Source: an uncultured virus (IMG/VR IMGVR_UViG_3300021400_000004)
Taxonomy: Duplodnaviria; Heunggongvirae; Uroviricota; Caudoviricetes
Length of the DNA: 64,000 nucleotides
Virus record (IMG/VR): IMGVR_UViG_3300021400_000004
Reading direction: 5' to 3' (one strand)
Made by a program: the position numbers and the translations under genes. How positions within the stretch are numbered: position 1 is the first letter of the stretch; each line of letters begins with the position of its first letter. Shown piece by piece: positions 3,328 to 64,000 of this stretch. Under the pieces are notes generated by a model. It was not told the DNA's origin. It ran no database searches and worked only from the letters and a program-made list of their open reading frames with translations.

Positions 3328-3407
3328 TTTATTTACCTCTTTTCTTTTATTTCTATTATATATTAAAAAGAGGTAAATAAAATTTAAATAAAATGACCAC
3401 GAACTTA

Positions 3408-20175: not shown

Positions 20176-20828
20176 TAAATTAACTCCTTTAATACTTCAT
20201 CACAAAAACCTAACTCAATAGCTTCATCTGTAAAGAACCAAAAATCATCACGACTTTTCTCTTTATAAAGCTCTTCATCAACTTTAGTGTTCTTTATAAT
20301 ATAATTTTTCATTCTATCAATGAGATTATTATAATATCCAGCATAGTTTTTAAATTTACCTGCATCTATTGCACCAAGAGTTGTAGATCCTTCATGGAAT
20401 AAAAAACTTGATGAAGGATAAGCATATCTTTTATGACCAGTGATAAAGACAAGAAGCCCGCCTGAATAAGCAGTTCCCATATTAATTGTATAAACAGGTG
20501 TTTTTGACATAGTTATTGTATCTGCAATCATTAAAGCTCCAGTTAAATTACCTCCATTAGAATCTATAAAGAGTTTAATAGGAGTTCTTTCTTCTATTGG
20601 AATGTCCTTATCTGCCATATTCCACATTCTAATTAAATGTGCAATAGCATCACTACTTGCTTCATCTATATCATTTAAGAGCAGTGTTCTATTAATTGTA
20701 TCATATCTTTCAGATATACCATCTAAGTCTTTGATGTCAGAAGTATTATTTAAGTATTCTGTTATTAAAGAATCAAGAGTTACATCTGAAATTTTTTTAT
20801 TATTCATAAATTTATTTGTATCTGCCAT
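20175..20828 (-). CDS. clpP: ClpP-like serine protease
   Basis: IKLFIDSNGG, AYSGG (catalytic Ser), FLFHE (His), EAIELGFCDEV. Confidence 0.85.
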   Translation of the reverse strand: MADTNKFMNNKKISDVTLDSLITEYLNNTSDIKDLDGISERYDTINRTLLLNDIDEASSDAIAHLIRMWNMADKDIPIEERTPIKLFIDSNGGNLTGALMIADTITMSKTPVYTINMGTAYSGGLLVFITGHKRYAYPSSSFLFHEGSTTLGAIDAGKFKNYAGYYNNLIDRMKNYIIKNTKVDEELYKEKSRDDFWFFTDEAIELGFCDEVLKELI

Positions 20829-21751
20829 TAATTTAAGTTTCCTTTCGTTCCATTATAACCAAAAGTATCTGCTTGGTATAATTCAATAAAATATTTTTCT
20901 TTTTCGTTTAAATCTTTTTGACTACATTCTTCTATTAATTCAAAAGTAAAGTTTTCCAATCCATATTCTTGAATAGCTTTATATAATTTATTACCTTGCG
21001 GTGTATCTATACCTAAACCGCACTTACAATGATCTGACCATCGTCTATAAATATCATTAGACTGACCTATATAACATTCATCAGTAATGATATTTGTGAT
21101 TTTATATATTCCACATCTTGTTTTAGCTTGTAAAATTTGTGGAAATTGTTTTTTTGCAATAGGTTGCCAATAGGTTTGCCACACCAACATACTTAAGATA
21201 CGAGGTTTATTAAGTTCTCTTTTTACAATTTCAAGTCTGCGGGCGTCTGCTAAATCAGAATCAGAAGGTAACAATCTATAATTATCTTTATTTTCTTTTA
21301 CTTCTTGCTCTTTTAAAAGAGCTTCATGTGCGGCGGCCCGTGTCTGTTTCATTTTATCAAGTTCCATGGTAGTTTCAGACAGCTGTTCCCGCAACGTGTC
21401 TATTTTATAATCAAATTCTTCTTCGATTTGATTATATTTATTATCTAAATTTTTTACATATTCTTGAAATGCAAGATCTGAAATTTCTTTATTTTGTTCT
21501 ATTGTATCATTTAGACTATTTCTTTTTTTATGTATTATATCATCTAATTCATTGTTTTCATATTTTAATCTATTATTATCTATATTTAATTGTTTTACAT
21601 TATTTTCTAATTCAGCTTGCATTATTTTTAATTTATTATTTTCTTCTATTGCTTTTTTATCTACTTCTATTTTATGATTATTCTTAATTGTTAAAGAAAT
21701 ACAAAATAGTAATAGAATCATAATAATAAAAATTAATAATCCTATAATCAT
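20828..21751 (-). CDS. Membrane-anchored coiled-coil protein with a C-terminal GIY-YIG domain
   Basis: Hydrophobic N-terminal helix, long heptad region, CGIYKITN...CYIGQS. Confidence 0.75.
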   Translation of the reverse strand: MIIGLLIFIIMILLLFCISLTIKNNHKIEVDKKAIEENNKLKIMQAELENNVKQLNIDNNRLKYENNELDDIIHKKRNSLNDTIEQNKEISDLAFQEYVKNLDNKYNQIEEEFDYKIDTLREQLSETTMELDKMKQTRAAAHEALLKEQEVKENKDNYRLLPSDSDLADARRLEIVKRELNKPRILSMLVWQTYWQPIAKKQFPQILQAKTRCGIYKITNIITDECYIGQSNDIYRRWSDHCKCGLGIDTPQGNKLYKAIQEYGLENFTFELIEECSQKDLNEKEKYFIELYQADTFGYNGTKGNLN

Positions 21752-28397: not shown

Positions 28398-29457
28398 CGT
28401 GTTATTCTTATGTTTCCATAAGCACTGACTATCTTTTACTTCCATTAAGGAAGGAGACCATTTCGAACTGCGTATCAATAGCAGCCCTACTTCCCCGCCC
28501 ATAAGGCAAAGGGAATAGTCGATACAGGTTCAAATATTTATCCATTTCTTTTCTTTCTTTTTATAAATAGGAAGTTCTGAGTAATATCTACCCCATAATA
28601 TTTGTTGAAAAGTTTGAAAAGATACTTTATCTTTATAATCATTATAAATATTTTTTGCACTTTCATTTACATATCTTTGTCTTATTTTTATAACTTCTTC
28701 ATTTGTAAATTTAGCGCTTGTACCTTGTTCACCTTTACTTTGTTCTGTTTTATAATATTGTTTATTTTCTTCTGTAAATACTTCAGGCATTATATGTGAC
28801 CAACTTTTTCCTTGCCAAACTCTCTGAAAAGACTCAAAAGTTATTTTATCTTTATAATCTTGATATATTTCTTTTTGCTTTTTATGATTATTATAAGCTA
28901 TTCTAATCTTTTTTACATCTTCTTCAGTAAGTTTTGCATTTGGATTATGAGAACCTATTACATCTCTTAATCCACCATCAAATTTATTTCCAGAAGCTTT
29001 TGCATTTAATTTATTAACCCAATATTTTTCTCTTTCACTTAATTCTTCCACTCTACATTCTTCAAGAATTTCATAAGTAAAAGCATCAATACCTTTTTCT
29101 TTAATATAACCATCAAAAGGTATTCTTGATTGTTCATAAGTTTTTGTTTTATGTTCTTTAAATCGTCTTTCTATATCATTACTTTTACCAACATAAAACA
29201 TTTTTGGGTTTTCTTTTTCTGTTATTTTATATATTCCTATCATTTTTATTCTCCTTTAATACTTATTAAAAGAGAATGGATAAATATTTGTTTCCCACGG
29301 GATTTCCATATCTTTCGACTTAGGATTCCCCGTTAGCACTCTCATTCTCTTTTCTATTATATATGAATTTTATGTGTGACACATAAAACTCATTTGTCCT
29401 AGAAAAGTTGAGTACCCGCTTGATTAAGCGAAAAGTCTTTCATACGCCGTGTTACTG
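28398..29457 (-). mobile_element. Group I intron in gyrB (1060 nt)
   Basis: P1 pairs ACGU|C with GGCGU, placing a U-G pair at the splice site. Terminal G at 28398. P7 strands are ATCGACTAT and GATAGTCAG. Splicing restores the TOPRIM motif DADVDGAHI. Confidence 0.93.
28530..29243 (-). CDS. Intron-encoded GIY-YIG homing endonuclease
   Basis: MIGIYKIT...FYVGKS plus two NAKLTEEDVxxIR-type DNA-binding repeats. Confidence 0.88.
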   Translation of the reverse strand: MIGIYKITEKENPKMFYVGKSNDIERRFKEHKTKTYEQSRIPFDGYIKEKGIDAFTYEILEECRVEELSEREKYWVNKLNAKASGNKFDGGLRDVIGSHNPNAKLTEEDVKKIRIAYNNHKKQKEIYQDYKDKITFESFQRVWQGKSWSHIMPEVFTEENKQYYKTEQSKGEQGTSAKFTNEEVIKIRQRYVNESAKNIYNDYKDKVSFQTFQQILWGRYYSELPIYKKKEKKWINI

Positions 29458-33625: not shown

Positions 33626-34044
33626 TTACATTTTTTCTGCAAGAGAAGCTATCTTTGACCGATGACATATTGGTAAAGTTACTTCTCCATAAAAATCTTG
33701 ACCTTTAAATACTTCAGAGACTCTTCTCATACCATTATTTGCACCTGCATATATATTTAAATCTACCTGAGTTTCAGAGTCTCCGTCTAAAATACATATA
33801 GAATCATCTCCTATACGTTGCAAAGCAAGTTTCATTAATTCTACATTAAGATTCTGCGCTTCTGTAATGTATACTCCTGCGTTAAGTCCAGAAGTATCAA
33901 AACCTCTTATATCAGACATTGGTAATAATATTAAAGTACCTTCTGAAATCATTCTTTCTACTTGCGCGCGATCGCCAAGCTTTGACACAAGGAAGTTACC
34001 TATTTGGCTGTCTAATAATTTTTCTATGCGGGAACCTGGGTAAT
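33626..34044 (-). CDS. phoH: PIN-PhoH (PhoH2-like) protein, exon 2
   Basis: (T|AT) YYPGSRIEKL...IRGFD...ITEAQN...LQRIG...GDSETQVD...HRSKIA. Confidence 0.88.
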
Positions 34045-35353
34045 CGTTTATCCTTTATAATTTTCATTATAAAACTGACTATATCTTAATTTAAGCTATT
34101 TTTTAATGCAAGATATTTTTCATGTTTTCTTGCTAAAAATCTTGGACAATTTTCATACAATGTATCTAAAATTTTTAAAACTTGTGATCTTCCTCTCCAG
34201 TTAATATGCCATGCAGAAGTATAAAAAGGCTTATTATCGCTGTTAAGATCAACAATTTTATTAATTAAATCTCTAAAATCTTGCACTTCTGATTCATGGT
34301 ATGCTGTAAAACCAAAAGTTACATCAGTGCTATAATCATCACTACAATAAAAATTACCATCTCCATCAAATAAACCTAAAGCAAAGGCAGGTAAAAATTC
34401 TTGAGGAATTTTTTGATAAGGTATTCTATCTACTTTATAAGTTTTTTGTGGAATTATGCTATATTTTTCTAAATCATTAAAAATTTGTTCATCCACAAAT
34501 TCAACAGAACAGCATATGCTATTTGGTCTTATGTCGTAAATTATTTTACTATCAATTCCTAAATCCTCTTTAAATTTCTCTAAGATTTCTTTATCTCTTT
34601 GCTGTAATTGCAACCTTATTCTTCCGGTTGTCTTATAGTGATCTACTGAACCATCAGTAAATAAAAAACCTAGCCAATAAGCTTTAATAGGAGAATCAAT
34701 ATTTGAGAAATAATCACTCTTTATTCTTCTATTAATTCTATTAGTGTTTTTTACTTCAAGTCCAAGTTCTGTTAATCTTAATTTCATTGTTCCTGTATCA
34801 AGATTAAAATGTTCAGCAAGTTCTTTTAAGAACGCCCCCTCTTCAATCATTCGTTTTGCTTCTTCTATTTGATCTTGAGATAAAGTTTTCTTTTTTCTAC
34901 CACCTCTAATGGTGATGTTATTATCTGTTAATAATTTGGTAATTTTTCTTCGGTTCATAAAAGGATATTCTTCCAACAATTTACTAATGGAAGTTCCATT
35001 TATATATTTTTGTATGATTTCTTGTTCCATAATAAAAATTTCCTTTCTTTTTTGATAATATATTTGAAAAATATAAAAGGAAACTTTTCTTATTTTGTCC
35101 AAAATTTTTCAGCTTAAATCCCATGCGCTTCGGATTTTATAAATCCTACTCTACTAACTTCCATAATTTTATTATGTGCTTTCGATAGTCGATGAACCTT
35201 CCTCTATTCGAGGCTTGGCTGCTGATTGTCCAATCTTTTTAATTTTCAAACATTCACACTTGGTTTTATTTCATACCTATGTTGTAGTCTAAAAAGCTCT
35301 AAGGATGTTCCAGCAGTTCACATGGTTTTACTTGAGCCTTACCCTTTATTTTA
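34045..35353 (-). mobile_element. Group I intron in phoH (1309 nt)
   Basis: P1 pairs CUUGGGU with GCUCAAG, with a U-G pair at the splice site. Terminal G at 34045. P7 strands are ATCGACTAT (~35185-35193) and AAGATATAGTCAG (~34075-34087). Splicing restores KLGYYPG. Confidence 0.92.
34086..35030 (-). CDS. Intron-encoded LAGLIDADG homing endonuclease
   Basis: YWLGFLFTDG and FALGLFDGDG motifs; probable start is the ATG at 35030. Confidence 0.88.
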   Translation of the reverse strand: MEQEIIQKYINGTSISKLLEEYPFMNRRKITKLLTDNNITIRGGRKKKTLSQDQIEEAKRMIEEGAFLKELAEHFNLDTGTMKLRLTELGLEVKNTNRINRRIKSDYFSNIDSPIKAYWLGFLFTDGSVDHYKTTGRIRLQLQQRDKEILEKFKEDLGIDSKIIYDIRPNSICCSVEFVDEQIFNDLEKYSIIPQKTYKVDRIPYQKIPQEFLPAFALGLFDGDGNFYCSDDYSTDVTFGFTAYHESEVQDFRDLINKIVDLNSDNKPFYTSAWHINWRGRSQVLKILDTLYENCPRFLARKHEKYLALKNSLN

Positions 35354-36179
35354 ACCCAAGCTTAGCTGACCCTGCAGTAGCCACAGTATTACAAAAAATT
35401 ACTATTTTATCAATCTTCCCCTCGTCAAGACACTCAAATAAATATCCTAAACCAAGATATGACTTACCTGTACCTGCAGCTCCGCGCAACATAGTCATTT
35501 TATTATTTCTTAAGCTATCTATTGCTATCTTTTGGAATGCATCAAGAGGTTTTACCTCTCCAAACATTTTTGATTTCATTGTACAAAAATGTATTTGTTG
35601 AAATTTATTATTTCTAAATACATAGCTATCTATAATTTTGTCATTTTGTTTAATTATTAAATATTGATTATTTAATAATCCAAAATCATCATTAGAATAA
35701 ATTCTATCATAAACTTGAGCTAATTCATTATCAGTTGTACAATATTTAACTTCATAACCAGTATAATTATAGTCATCTTTTGTTATTAAATTTTTTGTAG
35801 TTAAACCTAAGCTTTTTGCAATATTATTACAATTAATATCATCTGTTGCAAAAATTGTATCTGGATGCTTAATACTATAAACAAAAGCACTAATAATGAT
35901 ACGCGTATCATTATTATCTAATAAAATAGGATTGGGTTTTAGATAACTCTCATCCCAATCCTTTTCATAGTTTATTATCGTATAAGCACCAAAATAGAAA
36001 CTTAGTAACTGGCTAAGCTTTTTAGCTTTAAATTTAATTTCATCATCTTTATACTTAGATGTTTTAATATTTTCAATCTCTCCTAATGTAATATTACTAA
36101 TTATAAAAGGATCTGAATGAATATTTTTAAAGATTTCTTTATATCCATTCAATAGACTGCAAGTATCATAAAAAATCAT
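35354..36179 (-). CDS. phoH: PIN-PhoH (PhoH2-like) protein, exon 1
   Basis: PIN domain (FYDTCSLL...NNDTRII...ATDD) and Walker A GAAGTGKS; spliced product is about 414 aa. Confidence 0.88.
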
Positions 36180-36234
36180 TAAATTCGCTCCCATCTATTT
36201 TGATATATTATATATGAAATTTTTATTTAAAAAA

Positions 36235-36714
36235 TTAATTATTTTTGTCCTGCGTAACAGTTTTTAAAGCTGCGATTGCATCTCCAAGCTCTTTTAACTT
36301 TTTATTTCTTTCTGCTTTATTTGTTGTTCTTGATTTAATATAAATATTTCTTGATTCAATGCAGTTTCTTATTAACTTATCGCATTCAAGAATATTATCT
36401 TCGTATTCTCTAAGTTCCTTTTCTATTGCATTAATTAATCTTTCAGCATATTTAAAGCCATCTTTATTAGAAGGTAATGCAGAAATAAGTCTTTTTAAAC
36501 CTTTTATTTCTGCTTTTTTTAACTTCGCCTCTTCTTTAAAATATGCTTTGTATGCACGAAGCTCTGCTATTCTATGACCAGTTACTTTAGATGGCGGGAG
36601 GGGGTCTAATGTTGCATTAAACTTAGCTACTCCTTTAAAAATACCAAGTCTAGTCTGTAAGAATACACAAGTTGTATTACCTTCTTCATACTCTTTAATA
36701 ACTTTCATTTTCAT
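36235..36714 (-). CDS. Hypothetical coiled-coil protein
   Basis: 159-aa ORF coupled to the upstream gene. Confidence 0.6.
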   Translation of the reverse strand: MKMKVIKEYEEGNTTCVFLQTRLGIFKGVAKFNATLDPLPPSKVTGHRIAELRAYKAYFKEEAKLKKAEIKGLKRLISALPSNKDGFKYAERLINAIEKELREYEDNILECDKLIRNCIESRNIYIKSRTTNKAERNKKLKELGDAIAALKTVTQDKNN

Positions 36715-37268
36715 TAGCGTGAAACCCTTTCATAAGCTTTTATATCTTTTATAATAGTTTCTACATCAACAGGGTAATTATTGTGGGCGTCAAGTTCTAC
36801 ATGGTAGATCAATCCTTTATCCATGTCTTGAAACCTATTATTAGTGTGAGAATGACCGCACAAACTTATCACCCTCCTATTTAACGGTTTGTCATCATCA
36901 TAATTTGAAGTAATAGTTGGATAATGACTTAAATAAAAGTGATACCCATTAATTTTTATCATATCTGCGTGTCCATGACATATAAAACCTTCATTTATCA
37001 TTAACTCTTTGCGGGTGTCTGTGTCGTGATTACCCCAGATAATATGTTTTTCACCTGGCAACCGCTTCATATAAGACATTCCTTCTTCATTATTATTAAG
37101 AAAACAATCTCCAAGAATATAAAGAGTATCTGTCCAATCTACTACTTCATTGATATTTTTAATTATTTGTTCATTCATTTCATATATTGAATCAAATCCT
37201 CGTGGTTCATAAAGGAAAGGTTTATTATGGCACCAATGGAGATCTGATGTAAACCATATTTTATTCAT
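36714..37268 (-). CDS. Calcineurin-like metallophosphoesterase
   Basis: SDLH, LGD, GNHD, SHYP and GHSH motifs. Confidence 0.9.
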   Translation of the reverse strand: MNKIWFTSDLHWCHNKPFLYEPRGFDSIYEMNEQIIKNINEVVDWTDTLYILGDCFLNNNEEGMSYMKRLPGEKHIIWGNHDTDTRKELMINEGFICHGHADMIKINGYHFYLSHYPTITSNYDDDKPLNRRVISLCGHSHTNNRFQDMDKGLIYHVELDAHNNYPVDVETIIKDIKAYERVSR

Positions 37269-37433: not shown

Positions 37434-37772
37434 TCATATATTTATTACACTCCCATGTTTTCCACTCATTTTAAATTTCATTATAAATCTTTTAATTATT
37501 TGACTCCCATCATTTATAAAAACAATATAATCTGCTTTTTGAGTCATTTTATCCATTAGTTCATCTATATCTTTATATTTACAAGGATAATATGGTAAAC
37601 CTCTATATTCAGCCCATAGATGACTTAGAGGTTTATCATTATTATCATAATCATAAATAAATCCACCTATTACATTAAATAAGTAAATTCCACTTTCTTC
37701 TATTAAATTCATTAATTCATTATCAACAAGCGCTAAATGTTGCGCGCTCCCGCCAATTATAGCTACATTCAT
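37434..37772 (-). CDS. Hypothetical protein (possible SLOG/YspA-like fold)
   Basis: MNVAIIGGS start and WAEYRGLPY; the similarity is recalled, not verified. Confidence 0.4.
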   Translation of the reverse strand: MNVAIIGGSAQHLALVDNELMNLIEESGIYLFNVIGGFIYDYDNNDKPLSHLWAEYRGLPYYPCKYKDIDELMDKMTQKADYIVFINDGSQIIKRFIMKFKMSGKHGSVINI

Positions 37773-38224
37773 CTTACTCTAATCACTTTATTAAATCCTT
37801 CAAAAGTTGCAGGAGGTCTGAAGTTACTTTTCATTTGATACATTGTTTTATCTGGAACTCTTGTTATACCTTCGCGCTCACTATTTCTTTTCATACATAC
37901 CTCAAATGGTGTATCCATCCATATAACCCATACTTCATCAGGTATAACCTGTAAATTTTTTAATAGCTTTTTCCTTGATGCAGCGGATATATGAGTAGCA
38001 TCCGCAATAACGGTTTTTTCTGCAAGAAGATATTTATCTATTCTATTGCAAAATTCTTTATACACATTTGATTCATGGTCAAAATAATGTGCTTGGTCAG
38101 TAACAGTTTCATATCTTATTTCATCTCTTGAAACATATTCACAATCATTTTCTTCCATTAATTTTTTTGCATATGTACTTTTACCGCAGCCAGGTAATCC
38201 ACACATAATAATTAATCTATTCAT
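37769..38224 (-). CDS. Polynucleotide kinase-like P-loop protein (AAA_33)
   Basis: CGLPGCGKST, SRDEIR, IADAT, RNSER...VP. Confidence 0.85.
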   Translation of the reverse strand: MNRLIIMCGLPGCGKSTYAKKLMEENDCEYVSRDEIRYETVTDQAHYFDHESNVYKEFCNRIDKYLLAEKTVIADATHISAASRKKLLKNLQVIPDEVWVIWMDTPFEVCMKRNSEREGITRVPDKTMYQMKSNFRPPATFEGFNKVIRVR

Positions 38225-38743: not shown

Positions 38744-39985
38744 TTATTGATGATATTTTATTAAAAAGCTATTTGACACTGCTTTGAATGATCTCTCACC
38801 ATCCCAGTCTCTAAATACAAGTCCTTCTCTTGGATTGTCATCAAGAAAAGAAGATCCATCAGCTTCTTTTATAAGTTCATCACAATTTTCTGGCAGTTTA
38901 AAATTAATATATACAATAGGAACACATGGTAATTTGTATATGTTGAACAATATTTCTGTCATTTCTATTGGATTGAATCTATGTCTTGTACCATCTTTAT
39001 ATCCATATATAAGATTAAAAGCCATAAAATTATGTTCACCTTGAGGTACTGAGTAAGTACGTTTCTGTATTCCATCACCATAAGTCTCGCCTTGGATAGT
39101 TACAAAATCAAGTTTTTCATTATTATAAAGTATTGATTCAAGAATATTTTTAATCTTATATTTTTCATTCATTTCAATATATACATTAGTTTCATAGTAG
39201 CATCTATCTATTTTTTCAGGAGTATCAAAACATACATTTCTTGAACATATATAAAATTCATCCTTATGGAACATCTTACCTCTCTTTAAGGTATAAGTAG
39301 AGCTTGTCCCATCAATCTTCTCAGTTGCTATCCAGTTTTCATTATGCCAGTCTGGGTCGGTAAATAACCAAGGCATATTCTGCGCACGTTCCTCGTCTGT
39401 TTTTACTACCCACTGAGGCCAACTCTTCTTATCTTTAGCCTTGCCAAAGAAAAGGAAAAGAAGCTTTTTACCCCAATTACGTTTCATAAGCCATCTAATT
39501 GGTTTCTTCTTAAATAAGTCAGGATGGCGCTGAGCCATTTTCTTATATTTATCTGCGGAAGGCGCCTTGCGCTTATTATCCTCCTCTGTTGCGTAAGTAA
39601 TACCAAGCTGTTTTGTAAGAAAACGAGACTCGTCATCTACCGCACAGAACTTACCATTTACATATACACCGCTATTATCCGCAGCATAAGGCCACCCGAA
39701 GTCGTCAGGATGCATAAGTAATCCCTGAGAGTAGAATGTCTTAAACTTCTGTGTTTTAATCTTATAATGATACTTCTCAAGAAACTCAAATGGCGTGGTC
39801 TCGGGTGTTTTTGCGTCAACCTCGATATATATTCCTATATCGCCAGGTTTAAACTGACCTTTCTTTACCATCGTGCGCCATCCGTTCACCACTGCCGCTT
39901 CTACTCTATCTTTACCTTCTATTGGCTCTATTGCATCTACATAAATTAAATATGCTAATTCTCTTATATTATTTTTGTTAAGCAT
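38744..39985 (-). CDS. ATP-dependent RNA ligase (Rnl2/DRB0094-like with N-terminal OB domain)
   Basis: TEKIDGTS motif I, SRN, QGETYG, REGLVFR, SFKAVS. Confidence 0.88.
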   Translation of the reverse strand: MLNKNNIRELAYLIYVDAIEPIEGKDRVEAAVVNGWRTMVKKGQFKPGDIGIYIEVDAKTPETTPFEFLEKYHYKIKTQKFKTFYSQGLLMHPDDFGWPYAADNSGVYVNGKFCAVDDESRFLTKQLGITYATEEDNKRKAPSADKYKKMAQRHPDLFKKKPIRWLMKRNWGKKLLFLFFGKAKDKKSWPQWVVKTDEERAQNMPWLFTDPDWHNENWIATEKIDGTSSTYTLKRGKMFHKDEFYICSRNVCFDTPEKIDRCYYETNVYIEMNEKYKIKNILESILYNNEKLDFVTIQGETYGDGIQKRTYSVPQGEHNFMAFNLIYGYKDGTRHRFNPIEMTEILFNIYKLPCVPIVYINFKLPENCDELIKEADGSSFLDDNPREGLVFRDWDGERSFKAVSNSFLIKYHQ

Positions 39986-57993: not shown

Positions 57994-58290
57994 TTACATA
58001 CCAAATATATTAAAAAACATATCAGTTAAATCTTTAGTTGTTTTATAATTCTTTTTACCCTGAAGTTCAGCAATCTCTTTCTCTTTCTTATCTATCTGAT
58101 CTATAATTGCTTCAATCTCATTATAAGCCTTATCATAAAGTTCCTTTAAGTCATCAAGCTCCTTCTTTGCAGTTTTAATTTTTTCATTAGTTGAAATAAT
58201 CTTTGCTTCTGCTTCCTTCAGTTCTTTTTCTGTATCATAAAGCTTGTTTGTTTTTTCACTATAAAACTTCATAAAATAACCTTCTTTCAT
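57994..58290 (-). CDS. Hypothetical coiled-coil protein
   Basis: MKFYSEKTNKLYDTEKEL; downstream terminator at 57942-57968. Confidence 0.6.
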   Translation of the reverse strand: MKEGYFMKFYSEKTNKLYDTEKELKEAEAKIISTNEKIKTAKKELDDLKELYDKAYNEIEAIIDQIDKKEKEIAELQGKKNYKTTKDLTDMFFNIFGM

Positions 58291-58293
58291 TTT

Positions 58294-58921
58294 CTTTAAT
58301 AATTTAACTATAATAATAAATGATTAGACTTTCGCCTTACTTACATTACCTTCCTTTTTATTCGACCAATGGAAAGATAAGTCTGAGCCAAAGGGAGCTA
58401 CCCTTTAACTTCTTACCTTGCGGATACCCGAAGATACCCTGCCTACACCATACAGGATTGATTACCTATAACTTTCACGCTCCATTCAGATGTTTTATTT
58501 TTATAAAGTTTAACCACACTTTCTTTAATTTGATCTCATTGTAGATTTGCGCTACTCGTACCTTGACCTTCTCTTATAGATTGTCACCAATCATCAACTA
58601 CAAAAAACTTCCTTATTTTCGTATTACTTAGGTTTGCGGCGGGGACGCCCCACATACCGCCTAACTAAGCTTCTTCCTCGCAGAGGCTGCCTATTACGGA
58701 AGCGAGAAGACAGTGTCTTAAAAAGCGATAACTTCAGCACATAATACTAGGAACCTAATTACATTTATTAGGCATTTCTTATATCACTATAAGAACCTTT
58801 AGAATTTTTAAAAAGTATCCTTAGTAAAAACCTTATTACCCTTGATTAAGTATTATTCTCAGCCACATGGAGTTGTGTCTGCACTGAGTTAATATTTATT
58901 ATTATAATTAAATTATCAAAG
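58294..58921 (-). ncRNA. Large ornate ncRNA, ROOL-like
   Basis: ORF-free on the minus strand, hairpin-rich, closed by a 28-bp terminal stem with two G-U pairs. It has its own TTGACA/TATAAT promoter (58948-58976) and adjoins tRNAs. The family is inferred from size and context. Confidence 0.65.
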
Positions 58922-59076
58922 TGCTTTTTGTTTCATTTTCTATATATATTATATAAAAAATTTTTTAAAATGTCAAATCAGTTACTCGGCGCGGGTTGTG
59001 TACAGATACCGCAATACTGGTGGGTCTACATATGATAACATATGAACATTTGCCTAAACGCAACTGATTTGATTAG

Positions 59077-59147
59077 CTGGGGTAGTTGGATTCGAACCAA
59101 CGTTCATGGAGTCAAAGTCCACCGTCTTACCGCTTGGCTATACCCCA
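59077..59147 (-). tRNA. tRNA-Gln(UUG)
   Basis: TGGGGTA/TACCCCA acceptor, GTGGA-CTTTGAC-TCCAT anticodon arm, TTCGAAT T-loop. Confidence 0.9.
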
Positions 59148-59155
59148 ATATTTAG

Positions 59156-59239
59156 TGCGCTTGGCGGGACTTGAACCCGCATGAACTTTCGCTCGAGGGA
59201 TTTTAAGTCCCTTGTGTCTGCCGATTCCACCACAGGCGC
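59156..59239 (-). tRNA. tRNA-Leu(UAA)
   Basis: AGGGA-CTTAAAA-TCCCT anticodon arm, long variable arm, TTCAAGT T-loop. Confidence 0.9.
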
Positions 59240-59683
59240 ATATTGCGGGAACCCAGCTTTGAAACTTCACGAAGCGCCATTCCCGCACTCCTTTTATCTC
59301 TCTCTATTGAATAACTCCCGTGCTAATATGCTTACACTACAAGACTTGGAGATTATGAATATGTAGCTTATCATAGAAAGAGAGGAAGCTTTCAGCTACA
59401 TATTTTATAATAATGGCATATAAGATTAACTCTTATTCTAGGACATATGCCAGATCCTGTTCTGTTTAGTTGGTCAGACAACCATTATTACATTACTACA
59501 TTACTATTGTACAAAGACAATAATTATTGCACGATAGCCTGCCGAAGCGGGACAGCAACCCCCACATTATTCTTGAGTTTAGTCAAGCGAGTTCTCTTTT
59601 TGATTTTACTCCATTCGGTTATCTACCCTCTGTGCTACGCCCAAAGACGATTTCGACTATTAAAAGGAAGTCGCTAACCTTAG

Positions 59684-59756
59684 TGGCGGAGAGGGGAGTT
59701 GAACCCCTAGCCCTTGACGTATGAAGCCACGAATCTACCTTTGATACTACTCCGCG
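59684..59756 (-). tRNA. tRNA-Met(CAU)-like with an initiator-type 1:72 mismatch, partly degenerate
   Basis: CGCGGAG/CTCCGCC acceptor, TTCATAC anticodon loop, TTCAACT T-loop. Confidence 0.65.
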
Positions 59757-60551
59757 TTATATTTTTTCCCATTCTTCTTCAGAATAAGATTTTATTTCTT
59801 GTTTTTTAAATGGTAAATTATAACTTTTACACCATTTTCTTATACTGTTATCAGTAACATTATATTTTTTACCTATTTGAACAAACGAAGTTGTTCTAAT
59901 TAATTGTTTCAATTCTTCTCTTGTTACAGGTCTAGTTGCTAATCCTTCTTGTTTTTGAATTTCATGTCTACAATCTTGACAATACTCTGCATTTTTACTA
60001 ACTATTTTATGACATTTTTTACAATAAAAGATTTGTTTTTTAGTTCTTGTGCAGTCAAAAGGACTAATTCTTAATGGATAAATTAATTTACTTTCTCTCC
60101 AAGTTCTTCCTGTATTAATATCTCTAATAGTATCTTCATGCACTCCATATATCTTTGCAATTTGAGGATAAGATAAATTCGATTTTGTTTTATCCAATAA
60201 AATTTTTTGAATGTCTTTTACTTGAGCATAAGTTAATTTCACTCCATGAACTTGATAATCTCCACCTTCTGTTTGATTATAAACTGGATTATAATATTTT
60301 ATCCAATAATGTTCTCTTTCATTAAGCTTATTAATATCGCATTCTTCAATAACTTCAAATGAAAAATTATCAATTCCATATTTCCTAAAAGCTCTATATA
60401 AAGGATAATCATACCCTTTATCATTTTTATTTTGACTTGCTACTTTATGGTCTGACCATCTTTTATTAATATTTCTACTTTGACCTATATAACAATGACC
60501 ATTTAAATTATTAGTTATTTTATAAATTCCTATCATAGTAAAAACCTCCAT
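59757..60551 (-). CDS. Free-standing GIY-YIG homing endonuclease in the tRNA cluster
   Basis: MIGIYKITNNLNGHCYIGQS, a CKKC...CQDC zinc finger and a C-terminal HTH; probable start at 60536. Confidence 0.87.
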   Translation of the reverse strand: MEVFTMIGIYKITNNLNGHCYIGQSRNINKRWSDHKVASQNKNDKGYDYPLYRAFRKYGIDNFSFEVIEECDINKLNEREHYWIKYYNPVYNQTEGGDYQVHGVKLTYAQVKDIQKILLDKTKSNLSYPQIAKIYGVHEDTIRDINTGRTWRESKLIYPLRISPFDCTRTKKQIFYCKKCHKIVSKNAEYCQDCRHEIQKQEGLATRPVTREELKQLIRTTSFVQIGKKYNVTDNSIRKWCKSYNLPFKKQEIKSYSEEEWEKI

Positions 60552-61052
60552 TTTTTTATTTCATATATATTTGAAAAAATGAAGATATATTTTATATAAA
60601 ATTGACCTCTTAAATTTAAGAGTTCAATCTAATCCGCGTTATAAAACCTGTGATTTATCTCGTTAGCACAGGTACTCCGCGTTATTAAGGTGGTTGAAAC
60701 GTGCCACCTCACGTTCTATTCTATGTCAAGGTATAATCATTGTCATAAGACATATAGTTTCGATTATTTAGACGGAAATAGACAAGCCACTTAATATCCT
60801 TTTTTTATTTTACATATATATTATATAAAAAATTTTTATAAATTTCAAATTATTTTTAAATCCGTTTTTGTTTCCTTTTACCCTTTTTGGCGGCTAAGCT
60901 AGTGGAGAACGGTAACTCCCCCTATTTCCATATATATTATATTAAAAATTTTTATAAAATTCAAATTTATGATATAAGTGAGCCACTCGCATCCCACCAC
61001 CTTATTTCATGTGCCTAAGCCTTGTCCGCTATTATATCATATATTTGAAAAG

Positions 61053-61125
61053 CCACCCCTGAGGAACTCGAATCCTACATTCCCAGAATGAAAATCTGGT
61101 GTACTGACCTTTATACGAAGGGGCG
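61053..61125 (-). tRNA. tRNA-Glu(UUC)
   Basis: CCAGA-TTTTCAT-TCTGG anticodon arm, TTCGAGT T-loop. Confidence 0.8.
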
Positions 61126-61452
61126 AAATAATACAACTCTTTACTTAACGAAGCAGTTGCCGCACCGTGTAACTCATTAGTACAATCATCACTGGGTAAA
61201 TTAGTAAGCTCGACCTGTCCCAGCTTATTGATTGGGTCCCCTCTTCACCGCATTGTCGATGTGATCTCTCGTAGCCGCTTACTCAATTATTTGTCAACTT
61301 ATATCTTGTTCTACGACTCCCCGCTATATATAGTCGAAATTCTCCGCGTCCGTGGTACTGTTGTATCGTCTATCAAGACGTCCTGGGCCTTCAGGAGGAT
61401 ATTCTCTGCGGCGGTCGGATCCTACCTTCCGCAGTTTTTATTGTTGACTTAG

Positions 61453-61527
61453 TCGGGGTGACAGGATTCGAACCTGCGACCTCCTGATCCCAAATCAGGC
61501 GCTCTAGCCAAGCTGAGCCACACCCCA
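61453..61527 (-). tRNA. tRNA-Pro(UGG)
   Basis: Canonical cloverleaf with CCTGA-TTTGGGA-TCAGG anticodon arm. Confidence 0.93.
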
Positions 61528-62090
61528 TTAATATTTTCTTAACTTTTCTATATATATTATAATAAAATTTTTTATAAAATTCAAATTAATTTTTTGGTTG
61601 ATTGGGGAGAACCACTCCCCTAAAGAAGATTACCATTCTCCTATAAGTTTTTTGAGATGAAAGCTTATAAAAAATCTAAGATTTGAACATTCAATCTAAA
61701 AGTAGATTTTATCGTTATATCAAACGGATAGTTTTTGGTTTTGAGTGACTATCAACTCTTCATATAGAAGGCACTTCCTTCTATGATACCCGACTTCTGA
61801 TTCTCACTGGTATCGGGCGGTAGGACCTCTATGGGTAACTTAATCCCAGCCCACGCATTGTTTCTAACTCAGAGTGACGACTCTCCTTCAAATCAAACGT
61901 CTCTTTTAATATTGATTTTAAGTTAGTACAATTTTAATTATCTATTATTTTTGTAAGGGTGTCTCTAAGCAGCACTTCTCCTTGTTTTACCCCTTACTAT
62001 TTACATCAACTGTCGCTATCAATGTAAAACTAGGACATAAGTTATTTTCAAGTCAGGCTACGACATTAATACCTTTCTTGATGCTCTATG

Positions 62091-62155
62091 AGCCGTCCAA
62101 GGGAGTCGAACCCTTAATCACAAGTCAATTGTGTTCACCATTGCGCCAAGACGGC
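62091..62155 (-). tRNA. Short tRNA-like element with an aberrant anticodon arm
   Basis: GCCGTCT/GGACGGC acceptor and AAGGG-TTCGACT-CCCTT T-arm, but the anticodon arm CACAA-TTGAC-TTGTG has a 5-nt loop. Confidence 0.5.
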
Positions 62156-62327
62156 ATATCATCAAGTGAGTAGTTTCAACCTCACGCATCTCTAGCGGGT
62201 TCAACGAATCGTAACTGGGGTAGCTTACTCGGATTTTCACCGACGCCCTCTGTGGTGTCTCCCCACTGCTTCCCGCAACACGAGCTTTATTCTCTTCACG
62301 ACTTTTAATACTTGTCTATTGATGAAA

Positions 62328-62398
62328 CTCCCCTGTCTGGATTCGAACCAGAGAGAATTGATTAACAATCAATCATGTTACCACTACATCACAAGGGA
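62328..62398 (-). tRNA. tRNA-Asn(GUU)
   Basis: TCCCTTG/CAGGGGA acceptor, ATTGA-TTGTTAA-TCAAT anticodon arm, TTCGAAT T-loop. Confidence 0.88.
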
Positions 62399-62403
62399 TT
62401 AGA

Positions 62404-62474
62404 ATGACTAGACAGGAATCGAACCTGTTCCGTTACTCTTGCGAGTTCCATCCTACCATTAGAACGACTAGTCA
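62404..62474 (-). tRNA. tRNA-like element (Cys-like U73) with a GCAA tetraloop in place of the anticodon loop
   Basis: TGACTAG/CTAGTCA acceptor, normal D and T arms, ACTC-GCAA-GAGT hairpin. Confidence 0.55.
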
Positions 62475-62825
62475 TCAAAAGGGGAAGGAAGAGTCGCAGG
62501 CAGCTACCCGCCTCTTATTACTTGGTCTTACATCTTCAGCATTTCTGCCTTGTAGCCTAACTTCCATTTGAAGTATATTTCAACTCACTCTCTTATATTT
62601 ATAAATAAAACAGTTAGAATCCTTTTTAGATGGTTCAGATTTTTTACCCATCTCTTCGCGCACTGACCTATTCTTTATTCTACCCTTGTAGAGCCAATCC
62701 TTCGCTGGCAAGATTCTTTTCTTAACATTGTTTGCAACCAATTTGTTAAGTTCATTCGTTATCTCTGTTTCATTTTCTATATATATTATAATAAAAATTT
62801 TTTAAAATTTCAAATTATGTTTCTT

Positions 62826-63242
62826 TTAATAATATTTATAAGGATAATATTTTAAATTCCATAAATTATCATCAATTTCTATTTTAGTATAGTCTATCTT
62901 TTCATCCTTATATGGATTATTACCATTCTGCCAAGTATCAGTATCATTAGCGATAAAACGATTACCTATCTTCCATACAGTAAAGCCAGTAAAAGAAAGA
63001 TTTGGAACATAATCTATACCATAGTCTTTATAATATTTAGTCTTTTTATCATATCCTCGTATAGTCGCATATAACAAACCACCGCTACCATCTTCAAATC
63101 TTTCAAAATTACTGTTTATTATATGAAATACAAATCTACCATTCCATAAAAAATCATTCTCTATTGATTTATTCAATTCTCTTACAAGTTTATTTAACTT
63201 ATGCTGATACTTTTTTCTTAATTTATCTCTCATAATTATCAC
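62826..63242 (-). CDS. Hypothetical protein
   Basis: ORF downstream of its own sigma-A-type promoter. Confidence 0.6.
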   Translation of the reverse strand: MIIMRDKLRKKYQHKLNKLVRELNKSIENDFLWNGRFVFHIINSNFERFEDGSGGLLYATIRGYDKKTKYYKDYGIDYVPNLSFTGFTVWKIGNRFIANDTDTWQNGNNPYKDEKIDYTKIEIDDNLWNLKYYPYKYY

Positions 63243-63293
63243 ATCCTTTTTATTTTCTATAATAATTATAGCAAAAATTTTATGAATTTCAAA

Positions 63294-63650
63294 TTAAATC
63301 TCTTTAAGTAAATTTTTGAATATTTTATCAACTTCTAATTTTTTAAGTTCTTTTCGAGCAAAAACATTATAACCAGAATAAATAATATCTCCATTATTTA
63401 TATAATTAGTTTCAACAAGATCTTTGAGTATATCGCCTATATATGGCTTTAAACAATAAATTGTTTTCCATCCATACTTTTTAGAATTTTCATAATCCTG
63501 TTTGGCATACTCTACATATTCTCTACAAGAACTTGAATCATACCCAAGATAATAAGTATGCTCAAAAATTGAATTTTCATTATCATAAATTTTAACTTCT
63601 ACTCTATCTGAATTTAAACCCATAATATATCTTATATTCATTTTTGGCAT
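63294..63650 (-). CDS. Hypothetical protein
   Basis: Probable start MPKMNIRY at 63650 with GAGG RBS and its own promoter. Confidence 0.6.
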   Translation of the reverse strand: MPKMNIRYIMGLNSDRVEVKIYDNENSIFEHTYYLGYDSSSCREYVEYAKQDYENSKKYGWKTIYCLKPYIGDILKDLVETNYINNGDIIYSGYNVFARKELKKLEVDKIFKNLLKEI

Positions 63651-63715
63651 ATAATTATTACCTCTTTCTTTATTTTCTATAATAATTATAATAAAAATTT
63701 TTAAATTTTGCAAGT

Positions 63716-63764
63716 TGGAGGTAGAGGGAATCGAACCCACTCGAGCCATAAGGCATGTGATTTA
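63716..63764 (-). tRNA. 3' half of an interrupted long-variable-arm tRNA (Tyr-like)
   Basis: TA-AA-TCACA, variable arm GCC-TTAT-GGC, GGG-TTCGATT-CCC, TACCTCC-A; the 5' half is not in the window. Confidence 0.6.
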
Positions 63765-64000
63765 TGCCTTATCCGAGAATTGAACTCGGTATTTATAAGT
63801 TTGAAATCCTTGATTATTTTTATTTGGTTCTGTTCTTAAAGAAATTATTTGTTTAGTTGTAGTAATATCTTTAATAGGTATTAACCACATATTTAAATCT
63901 TTATTTACACAGAATAAATAATCAAGCTCAGAGTGATTTAAAAGATTATCATAGACTTTGCCATTGGTTCCACCAGTTGAACGAAAATCTATTCTATCAT
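63762..64000 (-). CDS. C-terminal part of a PD-(D/E)XK homing endonuclease (I-Ssp6803I-like), not in the ORF track
   Basis: Manual translation: DRIDFRSTGGTNGKVYDNLLNHSELDYLFCVNKDLNMWLIPIKDI...YKYRVQFSDKA*. Confidence 0.65.
   Translation of the reverse strand, partial: DRIDFRSTGGTNGKVYDNLLNHSELDYLFCVNKDLNMWLIPIKDITTTKQIISLRTEPNKNNQGFQTYKYRVQFSDKA

What the first reader, a model, noticed from the sequence alone, without database searches (positions are those of the whole stretch)
63716..64000. Endonuclease gene ending in a tRNA 3' end, nested in the anticodon loop of another tRNA (possible tRNA-mimic intron)
Seen: the last codons of a PD-(D/E)XK endonuclease-like ORF (YRVQFSDKA*) double as a perfect T-arm CCGAG-TTCAATT-CTCGG (63773-63789), a 7-nt acceptor-like strand ATAAGGC and a discriminator-like A (63765). 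The next base begins an orphan tRNA 3' half (TA-AA-TCACA...TACCTCC-A), and the ORF stop TAA is its anticodon-loop sequence. No group I P7/P9 core or terminal G is visible at this junction, unlike the four true introns in the window. Established: I-Ssp6803I-type enzymes sit in tRNA anticodon-loop group I introns. Inference: the insert may fold as an inner tRNA mimic, be cut out by RNase P and RNase Z, and leave outer halves to be joined by a ligase such as the one at 38744-39985. Caveats: ATAAGGCAT can alternatively pair with ATGCCTTAT (63748-63756), and the outer 3' end would also fit an Ala/tmRNA acceptor.
Basis: partly seen in the sequence, partly recalled or inferred. Interest (0 to 1): 0.82.

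Follow-up and report, generated by a model that had tools for sequence, protein, structure and literature searches.

The report
tRNA-shaped intron splitting phage tRNA-Tyr
A phage tyrosine-tRNA gene is interrupted in its anticodon loop by a nuclease gene whose two ends pair into the top half of a tRNA, which suggests a so far undescribed way of cutting an intron out with the cell's ordinary tRNA-trimming enzymes and resealing the tRNA with a phage RNA ligase.

Summary
A metagenome contig (L015) is 100% identical to window 62268-64000 and runs past the window end. It carries the missing tRNA-Tyr 5' half, followed at once by a strand that pairs with ATAAGGC.

- **Insert:** 435 nt, almost all a PF11645 PD-(D/E)XK ORF whose stop codon is U35-A36-A37 of the tRNA.
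- **Spread:** 47 of 142 related loci share the design, against 0-3 of 142 in shuffled controls.
- **Boundaries:** the insert starts at N1 of a covarying 7-bp acceptor-like helix and ends at its discriminator, or at an encoded CCA.
- **CCA match:** an inner CCA is present exactly when the outer tRNA encodes CCA (20 with both, 20 with neither, 0 discordant).
- **Other cargo:** HNH and GIY-YIG genes sit in the same frame in tRNA-Asn, Gly and Glu.
- **Known intron types:** group I, group II and BHB features are absent.

Best reading (about 0.5): host RNase P and a tRNA 3'-end nuclease excise the insert, and a phage RNA ligase rejoins the exons. No RNA evidence was obtained. Earlier notes of this scan read similar splits as dead genes and mention no minihelix.

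The parts
63716..63764 (-). 3' exon of the split tRNA-Tyr(GUA): U35 to A73. It comprises TAAA, the anticodon-stem 3' strand TCACA, a 3-bp variable arm, the T arm GTGGG-TTCGATT-CCCTC, the acceptor strand TACCTCC and the discriminator A. No CCA is encoded.
   Evidence: After in-silico excision ARAGORN calls Tyr(GTA) for this copy only at the 80% threshold.
63762..63764 (-). The ORF stop codon TAA, which is U35-A36-A37 of the tRNA. It lies in the 3' exon.
   Evidence: In the first scan (42 loci) the stop begins at the first 3'-exon base in 33, including all but two of the inserts at the G34/U35 site.
63765..63765 (-). Inner discriminator-like A, the last base of the insert.
63766..63772 (-). Inner acceptor 3' strand ATAAGGC. 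It pairs with GTCTTAA, the first 7 bases of the insert, which lie outside the window at L015 1025-1031.
   Evidence: The family helix is 90.4% paired, with compensatory changes at 7 of 7 positions.
63773..63789 (-). Inner T-arm mimic CCGAG-TTCAATT-CTCGG, which also encodes R-V-Q-F-S.
   Evidence: RNAalifold predicts this helix, with 14, 7, 15, 1 and 0 double changes at its five pairs.
63765..64000 (-). The part of the 435-nt insert that lies in the window: the C-terminal 78 codons of a 138-aa PF11645 PD-(D/E)XK endonuclease ORF. The rest lies past the window end: ATG at L015 1046, SD at 1032-1037, inner 5' strand at 1025-1031, 5' exon at 990-1024.
   Evidence: Pfam PF11645 with E 1.1e-17 for L015:1046-1459. 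L015 is identical to the window.
38744..39985 (-). Phage ATP-dependent RNA ligase: an N-terminal PHA02142 OB domain plus PF09414. It is the candidate exon-sealing enzyme.
   Evidence: PF09414 E 5.8e-19, PF21189 E 9.3e-17.
37769..38224 (-). P-loop kinase (AAA_33) next to the ligase, a possible RNA 5'-end healing enzyme.
   Evidence: PF13671 E 1.8e-24.
36714..37268 (-). Calcineurin-like phosphoesterase, a possible RNA 3'-end healing enzyme of the same cluster.
   Evidence: PF12850 E 2.8e-07.

Best explanation
The insert is a mobile, endonuclease-carrying intron of a new design.

**Predicted fold.** In the precursor RNA, its first 7 bases pair with the 7 bases that follow a T-arm mimic at its 3' end. 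The insert's two ends therefore form the acceptor/T-arm half of a tRNA (a minihelix). The ORF sits where the D and anticodon arms would be. This minihelix stands on the anticodon stem of the outer tRNA-Tyr.

**Inferred pathway.**
1. Host RNase P cuts 5' of inner N1, leaving the 5' exon ending in G34 with a 3'-OH.
2. The host tRNA 3'-end endonuclease cuts after the inner discriminator, or after CCA where CCA is encoded. In CCA-less genomes such as this one that enzyme would be RNase Z. The 3' exon is left starting at U35 with a 5'-phosphate.
3. The two exons stay held together by the tRNA body and are sealed by the phage ATP-dependent RNA ligase, giving tRNA-Tyr(GUA).

**Shown:** the architecture, its covariation, its exact boundaries and its spread.
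**Inferred:** which enzymes cut, the end chemistry, and ligation.
For: 1. **The missing half is where predicted.** It lies on DNA identical to the window.
2. **Frequency.** 47 of 142 unique related loci have a 431-445 nt insert bounded in this way; shuffled controls give 0-3 of 142.
3. **Inner acceptor helix.** In 40 non-redundant loci it has 28 distinct sequences and is 90.4% paired. Compensatory changes occur at 7 of 7 positions. With partners shuffled the mean is 63% and the maximum 70% in 500 shuffles.
4. **No spare base at either junction.** With the boundaries taken from the minihelix alone, a 5/5 outer stem lies at offsets (3,4) in 24 and (4,3) in 4 of 43 loci. Cells outside these two helices' own diagonals hold at most 6 loci, most of them 0-2.
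5. **Two insertion sites.** Both give the same 7-nt loop: G34/U35 in 35 of 40 and U35/A36 in 5 of 40.
6. **The inner 3' end copies the genome's own tRNA style.**
   - Inner CCA and outer CCA: 20 with both, 20 with neither, 0 discordant.
   - Genome-wide, tRNA genes with encoded CCA number 1 of 18 and 1 of 13 in two genomes without an inner CCA. They number 13 of 15, 22 of 23 and 11 of 12 in three genomes with one.
   - In the window 0 of 6 tRNA genes encode CCA. All 6 are followed by T, 4 of them by TAA, as the inner discriminator is.
7. **The outer tRNA stays intact.** Its anticodon stem is 100% paired, its acceptor stem 97.9% and its T stem 94.5%; A73 is present in 40 of 40. After excision ARAGORN calls Tyr(GTA) in 33 of 47 loci at default thresholds and 45 of 47 at 90%.
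8. **Intronless alleles exist.** Uninterrupted alleles 95-98% identical to the joined exons are found for 3 loci.
9. **The split gene is the only tRNA-Tyr.** This holds in 5 of 5 complete genomes. One of them has 23 tRNAs for 19 amino acids, all but Tyr.
10. **Other cargo and tRNAs.** The same frame carries HNH and GIY-YIG genes in tRNA-Asn, Gly and Glu, plus a 158-nt ORF-less derivative.
11. **Free-standing relatives lack the T-arm mimic**.
12. **Ligase.** One is present in the window. Among records at least 90% complete, 7 of 8 carriers have a ligase against 7 of 17 non-carriers. Fisher one-sided p is 0.038, uncorrected for relatedness.
Against: - No RNA evidence was obtained; whether the exons are joined is untested.
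- In the CCA class the cut must fall exactly after CCA. As I recall, most characterised RNase Z enzymes do not cut there (Thermotoga maritima is the exception), and exonucleolytic 3' trimming would destroy the 3' exon.
- The window's ligase is of the DraRnl/OB type, known (recalled) for sealing nicks in duplexes, not for anticodon loops.
- A ligase is not universal among carriers: one complete carrier has only a sub-threshold match of 22.9 bits. It is also common in non-carriers (7 of 17).
- Exons differ more between loci (mean p-distance 0.40) than inserts do (0.31), and the two distances correlate weakly (Mantel r 0.175). Intact exons may therefore partly reflect repeated homing into intact genes, not long-term selection on a split gene.
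- Some copies are decayed. In L004/L096 the outer 3' half is truncated and position 34 is A. In L088 U33 is lost and the ORF is broken.
- The window's own spliced product scores poorly in ARAGORN, passing only at the 80% threshold.
- In CCA-less members the inner helix has only 5-6 of 7 pairs.
Confidence: 0.5

Rival explanations
1. Selfish cassette in a dead tRNA gene. A homing endonuclease gene landed in the anticodon loop and inactivated this tRNA-Tyr copy. The minihelix serves only the nuclease mRNA: RNase P/Z release it from the tRNA-cluster transcript and give it paired, tRNA-like, nuclease-resistant ends. The exons are never joined.
For: - Earlier notes of this scan read similar bare-ORF splits as dead genes.
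- Many relatives are free-standing genes beside intact tRNA-Tyr genes, so the ORF does not need an intron.
- L127-L130 carry a related ORF in a tRNA with no minihelix and an unclean junction.
- Some carriers are decayed.
- The exon and insert distances are weakly coupled.
- A clean insertion by homing would by itself leave exons that sum to an intact gene.
Against: - An mRNA-stabilising helix need not begin at the very first and end at the very last inserted base, yet there is no spare base at either junction in the 40 loci, at two different insertion sites and in four tRNA species.
- The split gene is the only tRNA-Tyr in 5 of 5 complete genomes, and one of them otherwise has tRNAs for all 19 other amino acids.
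- Outer stems are 94-100% paired across 29 distinct acceptor sequences.
- A cut after the discriminator would remove the ORF's own stop codon, so it does not obviously help the mRNA.
Confidence: 0.27
2. Self-splicing by an unrecognised ribozyme. The insert is a highly reduced group I-like or new catalytic RNA whose core overlaps the ORF, and the minihelix is part of it.
For: - Homologous PF11645 enzymes such as I-Ssp6803I sit in group I introns of tRNA anticodon loops (recalled; listings).
- Rfam's intron models can miss introns with large ORF insertions. Other long inserts in these loci also gave no Rfam match.
Against: - The last insert base is A in 38 and T in 2 of the 40 loci, never the terminal G that group I needs. 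The last 5'-exon base is G in 35 of 40, not U.
- Only 21 nt of the insert lie outside the ORF.
- RNAalifold on 38 sequences finds no conserved helix inside the ORF apart from one tiny, nearly invariant hairpin.
- No Rfam ribozyme or intron match at E up to 1 (L001, L002), up to 10 (window 58000-64000) or up to 0.1 (six further loci).
- The ORF sequence is shared with free-standing homologues.
Confidence: 0.07
3. The cutting enzyme is phage-encoded. Either the intron's own nuclease or another phage protein acts as an RNA splicing endonuclease that recognises the helix-loop-helix junction, as EndA does in archaea, followed by healing (kinase, phosphoesterase) and sealing by the phage ligase cluster.
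For: - The window has a phosphoesterase-kinase-ligase cluster fit for 2',3'-cyclic phosphate and 5'-OH ends.
- A review abstract lists tRNA-intron splicing among the functions of the PD-(D/E)XK superfamily (PMC3424549, listing and abstract).
Against: - Three unrelated nuclease families (PD-(D/E)XK, HNH, GIY-YIG) and an ORF-less 158-nt insert share the same RNA frame.
- The junction is a 3 x 4-5 nt internal loop, not a bulge-helix-bulge.
- No EndA domain (PF01974) in 0 of 5 complete genomes.
- This reading does not explain why the inner CCA tracks the genome's tRNA style.
Confidence: 0.08

Closest known systems
Cyanobacterial tRNA-fMet group I intron encoding I-Ssp6803I (PD-(D/E)XK homing endonuclease, PDB 2OST)
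   Same: A mobile insert in a tRNA anticodon loop that carries an endonuclease of the same Pfam family (PF11645, E 1.1e-17). The family profile matches 2ost_A weakly (E 0.03).
   Different: There is no group I core, no terminal G and no U at the 5' splice site. The ORF fills the insert, and the insert's ends form a tRNA minihelix instead.
Archaeal and eukaryal protein-spliced tRNA introns (BHB motif, EndA/Sen endonuclease plus RtcB or Trl1 ligase)
   Same: It would work alike: two endonucleolytic cuts in the anticodon loop defined by RNA structure, with the exons held by the tRNA body and then ligated.
   Different: There is no bulge-helix-bulge and no EndA (0 of 5 genomes). The inserts lie at 34/35 or 35/36 rather than 37/38. 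The proposed cutters are the general tRNA end-processing enzymes. The expected ends (3'-OH and 5'-phosphate) suit an ATP-dependent ligase without healing.
tRNA-like processing signals cut by RNase P and RNase Z: plant mitochondrial t-elements and MALAT1/mascRNA (recalled, not from a call)
   Same: An acceptor/T-arm mimic inside a longer transcript that recruits tRNA end-processing enzymes.
   Different: Those signals only define transcript ends. Here the mimic is nested in a real tRNA's anticodon loop, so the two cuts would equal intron excision.
Phage T4 Pnkp/Rnl1 repair of anticodon-loop breaks (recalled; review PMC3400036 seen as listing and abstract only)
   Same: A phage-encoded kinase, phosphatase and RNA ligase able to reseal a tRNA broken in its anticodon loop. 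The window has such a cluster.
   Different: In T4 the break is host-inflicted damage. Here it would be a programmed step of tRNA maturation.
Free-standing homing endonucleases of phage tRNA clusters (T4 SegB type, named in earlier notes)
   Same: Most distant relatives of this ORF are free-standing genes immediately upstream of a tRNA. Examples are Escherichia phage SelmaRatti, Vibrio phage AG74 and Bacillus phage BCP78 (29-38% identity).
   Different: Those copies lie outside the tRNA and have no T-arm or acceptor mimic at the ORF end.

Membership tests
Group I intron | Terminal G (omega G) as the last intron base | tested here: not met
   Across the 40 non-redundant loci the last insert base is A in 38 and T in 2, never G.
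Group I intron | U as the last base of the 5' exon (U-G pair in P1) | tested here: not met
   The 5' exon ends in G34 in 35 of 40 loci, the window's copy included. It ends in U35 in only 5 of 40.
Group I intron | Conserved catalytic core (P3-P9) | tested here: not met
   No Rfam intron or ribozyme match in the window or in 8 loci. RNAalifold on 38 sequences finds no conserved helices inside the ORF. Only 21 nt of the insert are non-coding. Rfam can miss ORF-bearing introns, so this row alone is weak.
Group II intron | 5' GUGYG, domain V, and a length above about 600 nt | tested here: not met
   The inserts are 431-445 nt and mostly begin GTCTT, GTTAT or GTTGT. There is no Rfam match.
Archaeal/eukaryal BHB tRNA intron | Bulge-helix-bulge at the splice sites | tested here: not met
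   The splice sites lie in one internal loop: 3-4 nt on the 5' side and 3-4 nt plus the discriminator (and CCA) on the 3' side. The loop sits between a 5-bp and a 7-bp helix.
Archaeal/eukaryal BHB tRNA intron | Splicing endonuclease EndA (PF01974) available | tested here: not met
   0 of 5 complete carrier phage genomes have it. Hosts were not tested.
PF11645 / I-Ssp6803I-type homing endonuclease | Sequence membership above Pfam's curated cut-off | tested here: met
   L015:1046-1459 scores 64.7 bits against a cut-off of 26.1. The 78-aa part inside the window alone scores only 14 bits.
PF11645 / I-Ssp6803I-type homing endonuclease | Site-specific DNA cleavage of the intronless tRNA gene | not testable with these tools
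   Only indirect support: intronless alleles 95-98% identical to the joined exons exist, and the insert and exon distances are weakly coupled.
tRNA-like minihelix substrate of RNase P / RNase Z | 7-bp acceptor helix stacked on a 5-bp T stem with a 7-nt T loop (UUCRANY), followed by a discriminator with or without CCA | tested here: met
   The T stem is 5/5 paired in 35 of 40 loci. T loops are TTCAAAT, TTCAATT or TTCAACT in 36 of 40. The acceptor has 7/7 pairs in 17 of 20 loci of the CCA class and 6/7 in 17 of 20 of the CCA-less class. N1:N72 is G:C in 31 of 40.
tRNA-like minihelix substrate of RNase P / RNase Z | Actual cleavage by these enzymes at N1 and after N73 or CCA | not testable with these tools
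   No phage RNase Z-like gene (PF12706, 0 of 5) and no CCA-adding enzyme (PF01743, 0 of 5) were found, so host enzymes would have to act.
Bacterial tRNA-Tyr (class II) | GUA anticodon in a 7-nt loop, a long variable arm and A73 | tested here: met
   After excision the loop is CTGTAAA. The variable region is 13-17 nt and A73 is present in 40 of 40. ARAGORN calls Tyr(GTA) in 33 of 47 loci at default thresholds and in 46 of 47 at 80%; the window's copy passes only at 80%.

The most novel reading that the evidence does not exclude
A third, ribozyme-free and EndA-free route of tRNA splicing exists in the bacterial virus world. Mobile introns disguise their two ends as the top half of a tRNA. The host's own RNase P and tRNA 3'-end nuclease then excise them precisely, and a phage RNA ligase reseals the anticodon loop. 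This portable frame would let any homing endonuclease gene (PD-(D/E)XK, HNH or GIY-YIG) live inside an essential tRNA gene without a catalytic RNA.
Probability: 0.5. Interest if true: 0.93.

Novelty: categorically new. Interest (0 to 1): 0.86.

Why it matters
**A new kind of intron.** Bacterial and phage tRNA introns are known only as self-splicing group I introns. Protein-spliced tRNA introns are thought to be confined to archaea and eukaryotes. If correct, this would be an intron whose splice sites are defined by mimicry of a tRNA end and which is removed by ubiquitous tRNA-processing enzymes plus a repair ligase.

**A role for phage RNA ligases.** It would give a housekeeping role to the RNA ligases that are common in tRNA-rich gut phages. 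One paper noted that an RNA ligase of the DRB0094 family is enriched in such phages without a settled function (PMC10879173, passages read).

**Hidden tRNA genes.** It would explain tRNA genes that standard finders miss. In one phage the supposedly missing tRNA-Tyr is the only gap in a full tRNA set.

**Testability.** The idea can be tested directly with one transcript and three enzymes.

**A possible tool.** The frame could be used for programmed RNA excision in bacteria.

Tried and rejected
**Searches that found nothing**
- No whole genome is held for the window. The nearest record, G001, does not cover the window end; only a repeated promoter-like element matched.
- Megablast of window 62800-64000 against phages gave no match.
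- An exact 41-nt pattern in viral contigs gave none.
- The neighbouring 119-aa ORF has no relatives in viral contigs.
- phmmer of the ORF against PDB gave no meaningful hit.

**RNA evidence**
- The look-up of sequencing runs listed only runs with small shares, at most 0.19 of the words.
- Read laying on 4 runs (contigs only) laid fragments of relatives' ORFs and showed no joint across the insert. This says nothing either way.

**My own scans that failed their controls**
- shuffled flanks scored as high as the real data.
- One search was confounded because the outer tRNA's own acceptor and T arm fit the search.
- These were replaced. One search was a script error, repeated.

- ARAGORN's intron mode found only 14 of 142 split genes. 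It places the intron by its own rule, so it reads the anticodon as GGA.
- A '1483-nt insert in tRNA-Ser' in G006 overlaps the ligase gene and is taken as a false positive.
- The Mantel test of exon against insert divergence was weak.
- PF09414 also scores the window's NAD-dependent DNA ligase at 29.6 bits, so PF09414 matches near the cut-off were not counted as RNA ligases.

**Literature.** Seven full-text searches found no paper describing this architecture. Subscription journals and supplements were not searched.

Full report
**What is at the site.** The genes at this end of the window lie on the minus strand.
- An ORF that runs off the window end finishes ...YKYRVQFSDKA*.
- Its last codons contain a perfect T-arm-like hairpin, CCGAG-TTCAATT-CTCGG (63789-63773), followed by ATAAGGC (63772-63766) and an A (63765).
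- The stop codon TAA (63764-63762) is the start of a tRNA 3' half, 63764-63716. This half comprises TAAA, a 5-nt stem strand, a short variable arm, a T arm, a 7-nt acceptor strand and A73, with no CCA.
- ARAGORN and Rfam find six ordinary tRNAs and a ROOL RNA nearby. They find no Tyr tRNA and no intron family.

**The missing half.** No genome is held for the window.
- A metagenome contig, L015, is 100% identical to window 62268-64000 over 1733 nt and continues past the window end.
- It shows GGAGGTA...TGTGA-CTG. GTCTTAA follows directly, then a Shine-Dalgarno AAGGAG and the ATG of a 138-codon ORF.
- The gene is therefore a class II tRNA with anticodon GUA (Tyr), split between G34 and U35 by a 435-nt insert. 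All but 21 nt of the insert is ORF.
- GTCTTAA pairs with ATAAGGC at 6 of 7 positions.
- The full-length protein belongs to PF11645, the PD-(D/E)XK family of I-Ssp6803I (E 1.1e-17). The family profile touches PDB 2OST only weakly (E 0.03).

**How general it is.** Searches with the protein gave 160 loci from viral and metagenome contigs, of which 142 are unique.
- A scan for a T-loop-bearing hairpin at the ORF end, a 7-nt partner upstream and a flanking 5-bp stem that restores NTGTAAA found 47 of 142 loci. With the 5' flank shuffled it found 1, 1, 3, 0 and 2 of 142.
- Inserts are 431-445 nt long.
- After in-silico excision ARAGORN calls tRNA-Tyr(GTA) in 33 of 47 loci at default thresholds, 45 of 47 at 90% and 46 of 47 at 80%. 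The window's own copy passes only at 80%.
- Two more carriers turned up on contigs binned with Muribaculaceae and Oscillospiraceae genomes.

**The structure is selected.** These figures come from 40 non-redundant loci.
- The inner acceptor helix has 28 different sequences. It is 90.4% paired and has compensatory changes at all 7 positions. With partners shuffled among loci, pairing averages 63% and never exceeds 70% in 500 shuffles.
- The inner T stem is 97.5% paired. Its loop keeps the T-loop motif (TTCAAAT, TTCAATT or TTCAACT) in 36 of 40 loci.
- The outer tRNA is intact: anticodon stem 100% paired, acceptor 97.9%, T stem 94.5%, and A73 in 40 of 40.
- RNAalifold on an alignment of 38 sequences independently predicts the outer anticodon stem (all 38 paired at all five pairs), the inner T arm and the outer T arm. 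Inside the ORF it predicts nothing but a tiny, nearly invariant hairpin.

**The boundaries are exact.** When the insert's ends are taken from the minihelix alone, the outer 5-bp stem lies 3 nt before and 4 nt after in 24 of 43 loci, and 4 before and 3 after in 4 of 43. Apart from extensions of these two helices along their own diagonals, cells hold at most 6 loci, most of them 0-2.
- There are two insertion sites: G34/U35 in 35 of 40 and U35/A36 in 5 of 40. In both, no base is left over on either side.
- Uninterrupted tRNA-Tyr genes 95-98% identical to the joined exons of three carriers exist in other phages.

**The inner 3' end copies the genome's tRNA style.** Half of the inserts end discriminator-CCA and half end at the discriminator.
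- This matches whether the outer tRNA encodes CCA, without exception: 20 with both, 20 with neither, 0 discordant.
- It also matches the whole genome in five complete phages. Two without an inner CCA have 1 of 18 and 1 of 13 tRNA genes with encoded CCA. Three with an inner CCA have 13 of 15, 22 of 23 and 11 of 12.
- In the window 0 of 6 tRNA genes encode CCA. All six are followed by T, four of them by TAA, just as the inner discriminator is followed by TAAA.

**The frame is independent of the cargo.**
- A general scan found the same design in tRNA-Asn(GTT) with an HNH gene, and in tRNA-Gly(TCC) and tRNA-Glu(TTC) with GIY-YIG genes. It also found a 158-nt ORF-less derivative of the Gly insert.
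- Conversely, most relatives of the Tyr-associated ORF are free-standing genes directly upstream of an uninterrupted tRNA-Tyr, sometimes overlapping it. These end ...YKYLITL* or similar, without a T-arm mimic.
- In cultured phages only distant homologues (29-38% identity) exist. They are free-standing in tRNA clusters and annotated as hypothetical.

**Is the split gene needed?**
- In 5 of 5 complete carrier genomes ARAGORN finds no other tRNA-Tyr. One genome has 23 tRNAs for 19 amino acids, with only Tyr lacking.
- Against this, exons differ more between loci than inserts do, and the two distances correlate weakly (Mantel r 0.175). This fits an intron that moves between alleles.
- A few copies are decayed.

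**Mechanism.**
- Known intron types fail their defining tests: no terminal G, no U before the 5' splice site in 35 of 40 loci, no core, no GUGYG, no bulge-helix-bulge and no EndA.
- An acceptor/T-arm minihelix is the part of a tRNA that RNase P and RNase Z recognise (established knowledge, recalled).
- Cuts before N1 and after N73 would leave a 3'-OH on G34 and a 5'-phosphate on U35. These are the ends an ATP-dependent RNA ligase joins.
- The window encodes such a ligase next to a P-loop kinase and a phosphoesterase.
- Among records at least 90% complete, 7 of 8 carriers have a PF09414 or PF09511 ligase above cut-off, against 7 of 17 non-carriers. Fisher one-sided p is 0.038, uncorrected for relatedness.
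- No RtcB was found in 0 of 5 carrier genomes tested, and no RNase Z-like gene or CCA-adding enzyme in 0 of 5. The cutters would therefore be host enzymes.
- A cut after the discriminator removes the ORF's stop codon, so only the unprocessed precursor can give a normally terminated protein.

**Open problems.**
- No RNA evidence was obtained.
- What cuts exactly after an encoded CCA is unknown.
- The window's ligase type is known for duplex nicks (recalled).
- The main rival accepts RNase P/Z processing of the nuclease mRNA but denies that the exons are joined.

**Literature and earlier notes.**
- Seven full-text searches found no description of this design.
- One paper on gut-phage theta ribozymes notes an unexplained enrichment of DRB0094-family RNA ligase in tRNA-rich phages and never uses the word intron (PMC10879173, passages).
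- Earlier notes of this scan describe bare nuclease ORFs splitting phage tRNAs and read them as dead genes. None mentions a minihelix.

Noticed in passing
window 58306-58912 (-): A full-length ROOL RNA (Rfam RF03087, 309 bits) lies at the edge of the tRNA cluster. The relative L001 has one in the same place (274 bits).
   Followed up: no
window 62400-62475 (-): A tRNA-like element lies directly upstream of tRNA-Asn. It has a 7-bp acceptor stem and a canonical T arm, but a 4-bp stem with a GCAA tetraloop stands where the anticodon arm should be. Neither ARAGORN nor Rfam calls it.
   Followed up: no
window 33626-36194 (-): A PhoH-like gene appears split: the PIN domain plus PhoH N-terminal part at 35346-36194 and the PhoH C-terminal part at 33626-33988, with a LAGLIDADG ORF (34086-35102) between them. 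This suggests an intron or intein. Rfam reports no intron family in the window at gathering score.
   Followed up: no
window 464-1240, 2551-3411, 17023-17862, 20828-21751, 28530-29243, 59757-60551 (-): The window is unusually rich in homing-endonuclease-type ORFs: NUMOD3, four GIY-YIG and a second LAGLIDADG. One GIY-YIG ORF lies inside the tRNA cluster.
   Followed up: no
window about 63660-63712 and 63240-63290, 62760-62820; G001 at six places: A repeated AT-rich promoter-like element (...TTATTTTCTATAATAATTATAATAAAAATTTT...) precedes several small genes. It recurs in the nearest related record.
   Followed up: partly
L002, L006, L009 and many other loci: Many carrier phages read TAG as a sense codon: in-frame TAG occurs at conserved Gln positions of the nuclease ORF. 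They also carry a CTA-anticodon suppressor tRNA. The window's own ORF has no in-frame TAG.
   Followed up: partly
L127-L130, L153 (about 1400-2000): A related ORF sits in the anticodon loop of a tRNA-Tyr-like gene without a minihelix, with extra bases at the 3' junction. The insert's ends pair (GTAATG with CATTAT). Their complete genomes carry a long Rnl1-type ligase open frame (737-749 aa).
   Followed up: partly
L009 15-847 and L006 2958-3810: Two further long inserts (747 and 780 nt, each with ORFs) interrupt other tRNA genes and do not have the minihelix design. Rfam gives no intron match for either. The first has group I-like sequence features by eye.
   Followed up: partly
L042, L043, L053, L056, L067: In some free-standing copies the nuclease ORF runs into the 5' end of the uninterrupted tRNA-Tyr, and its stop codon lies in the tRNA's D loop.
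   Followed up: no
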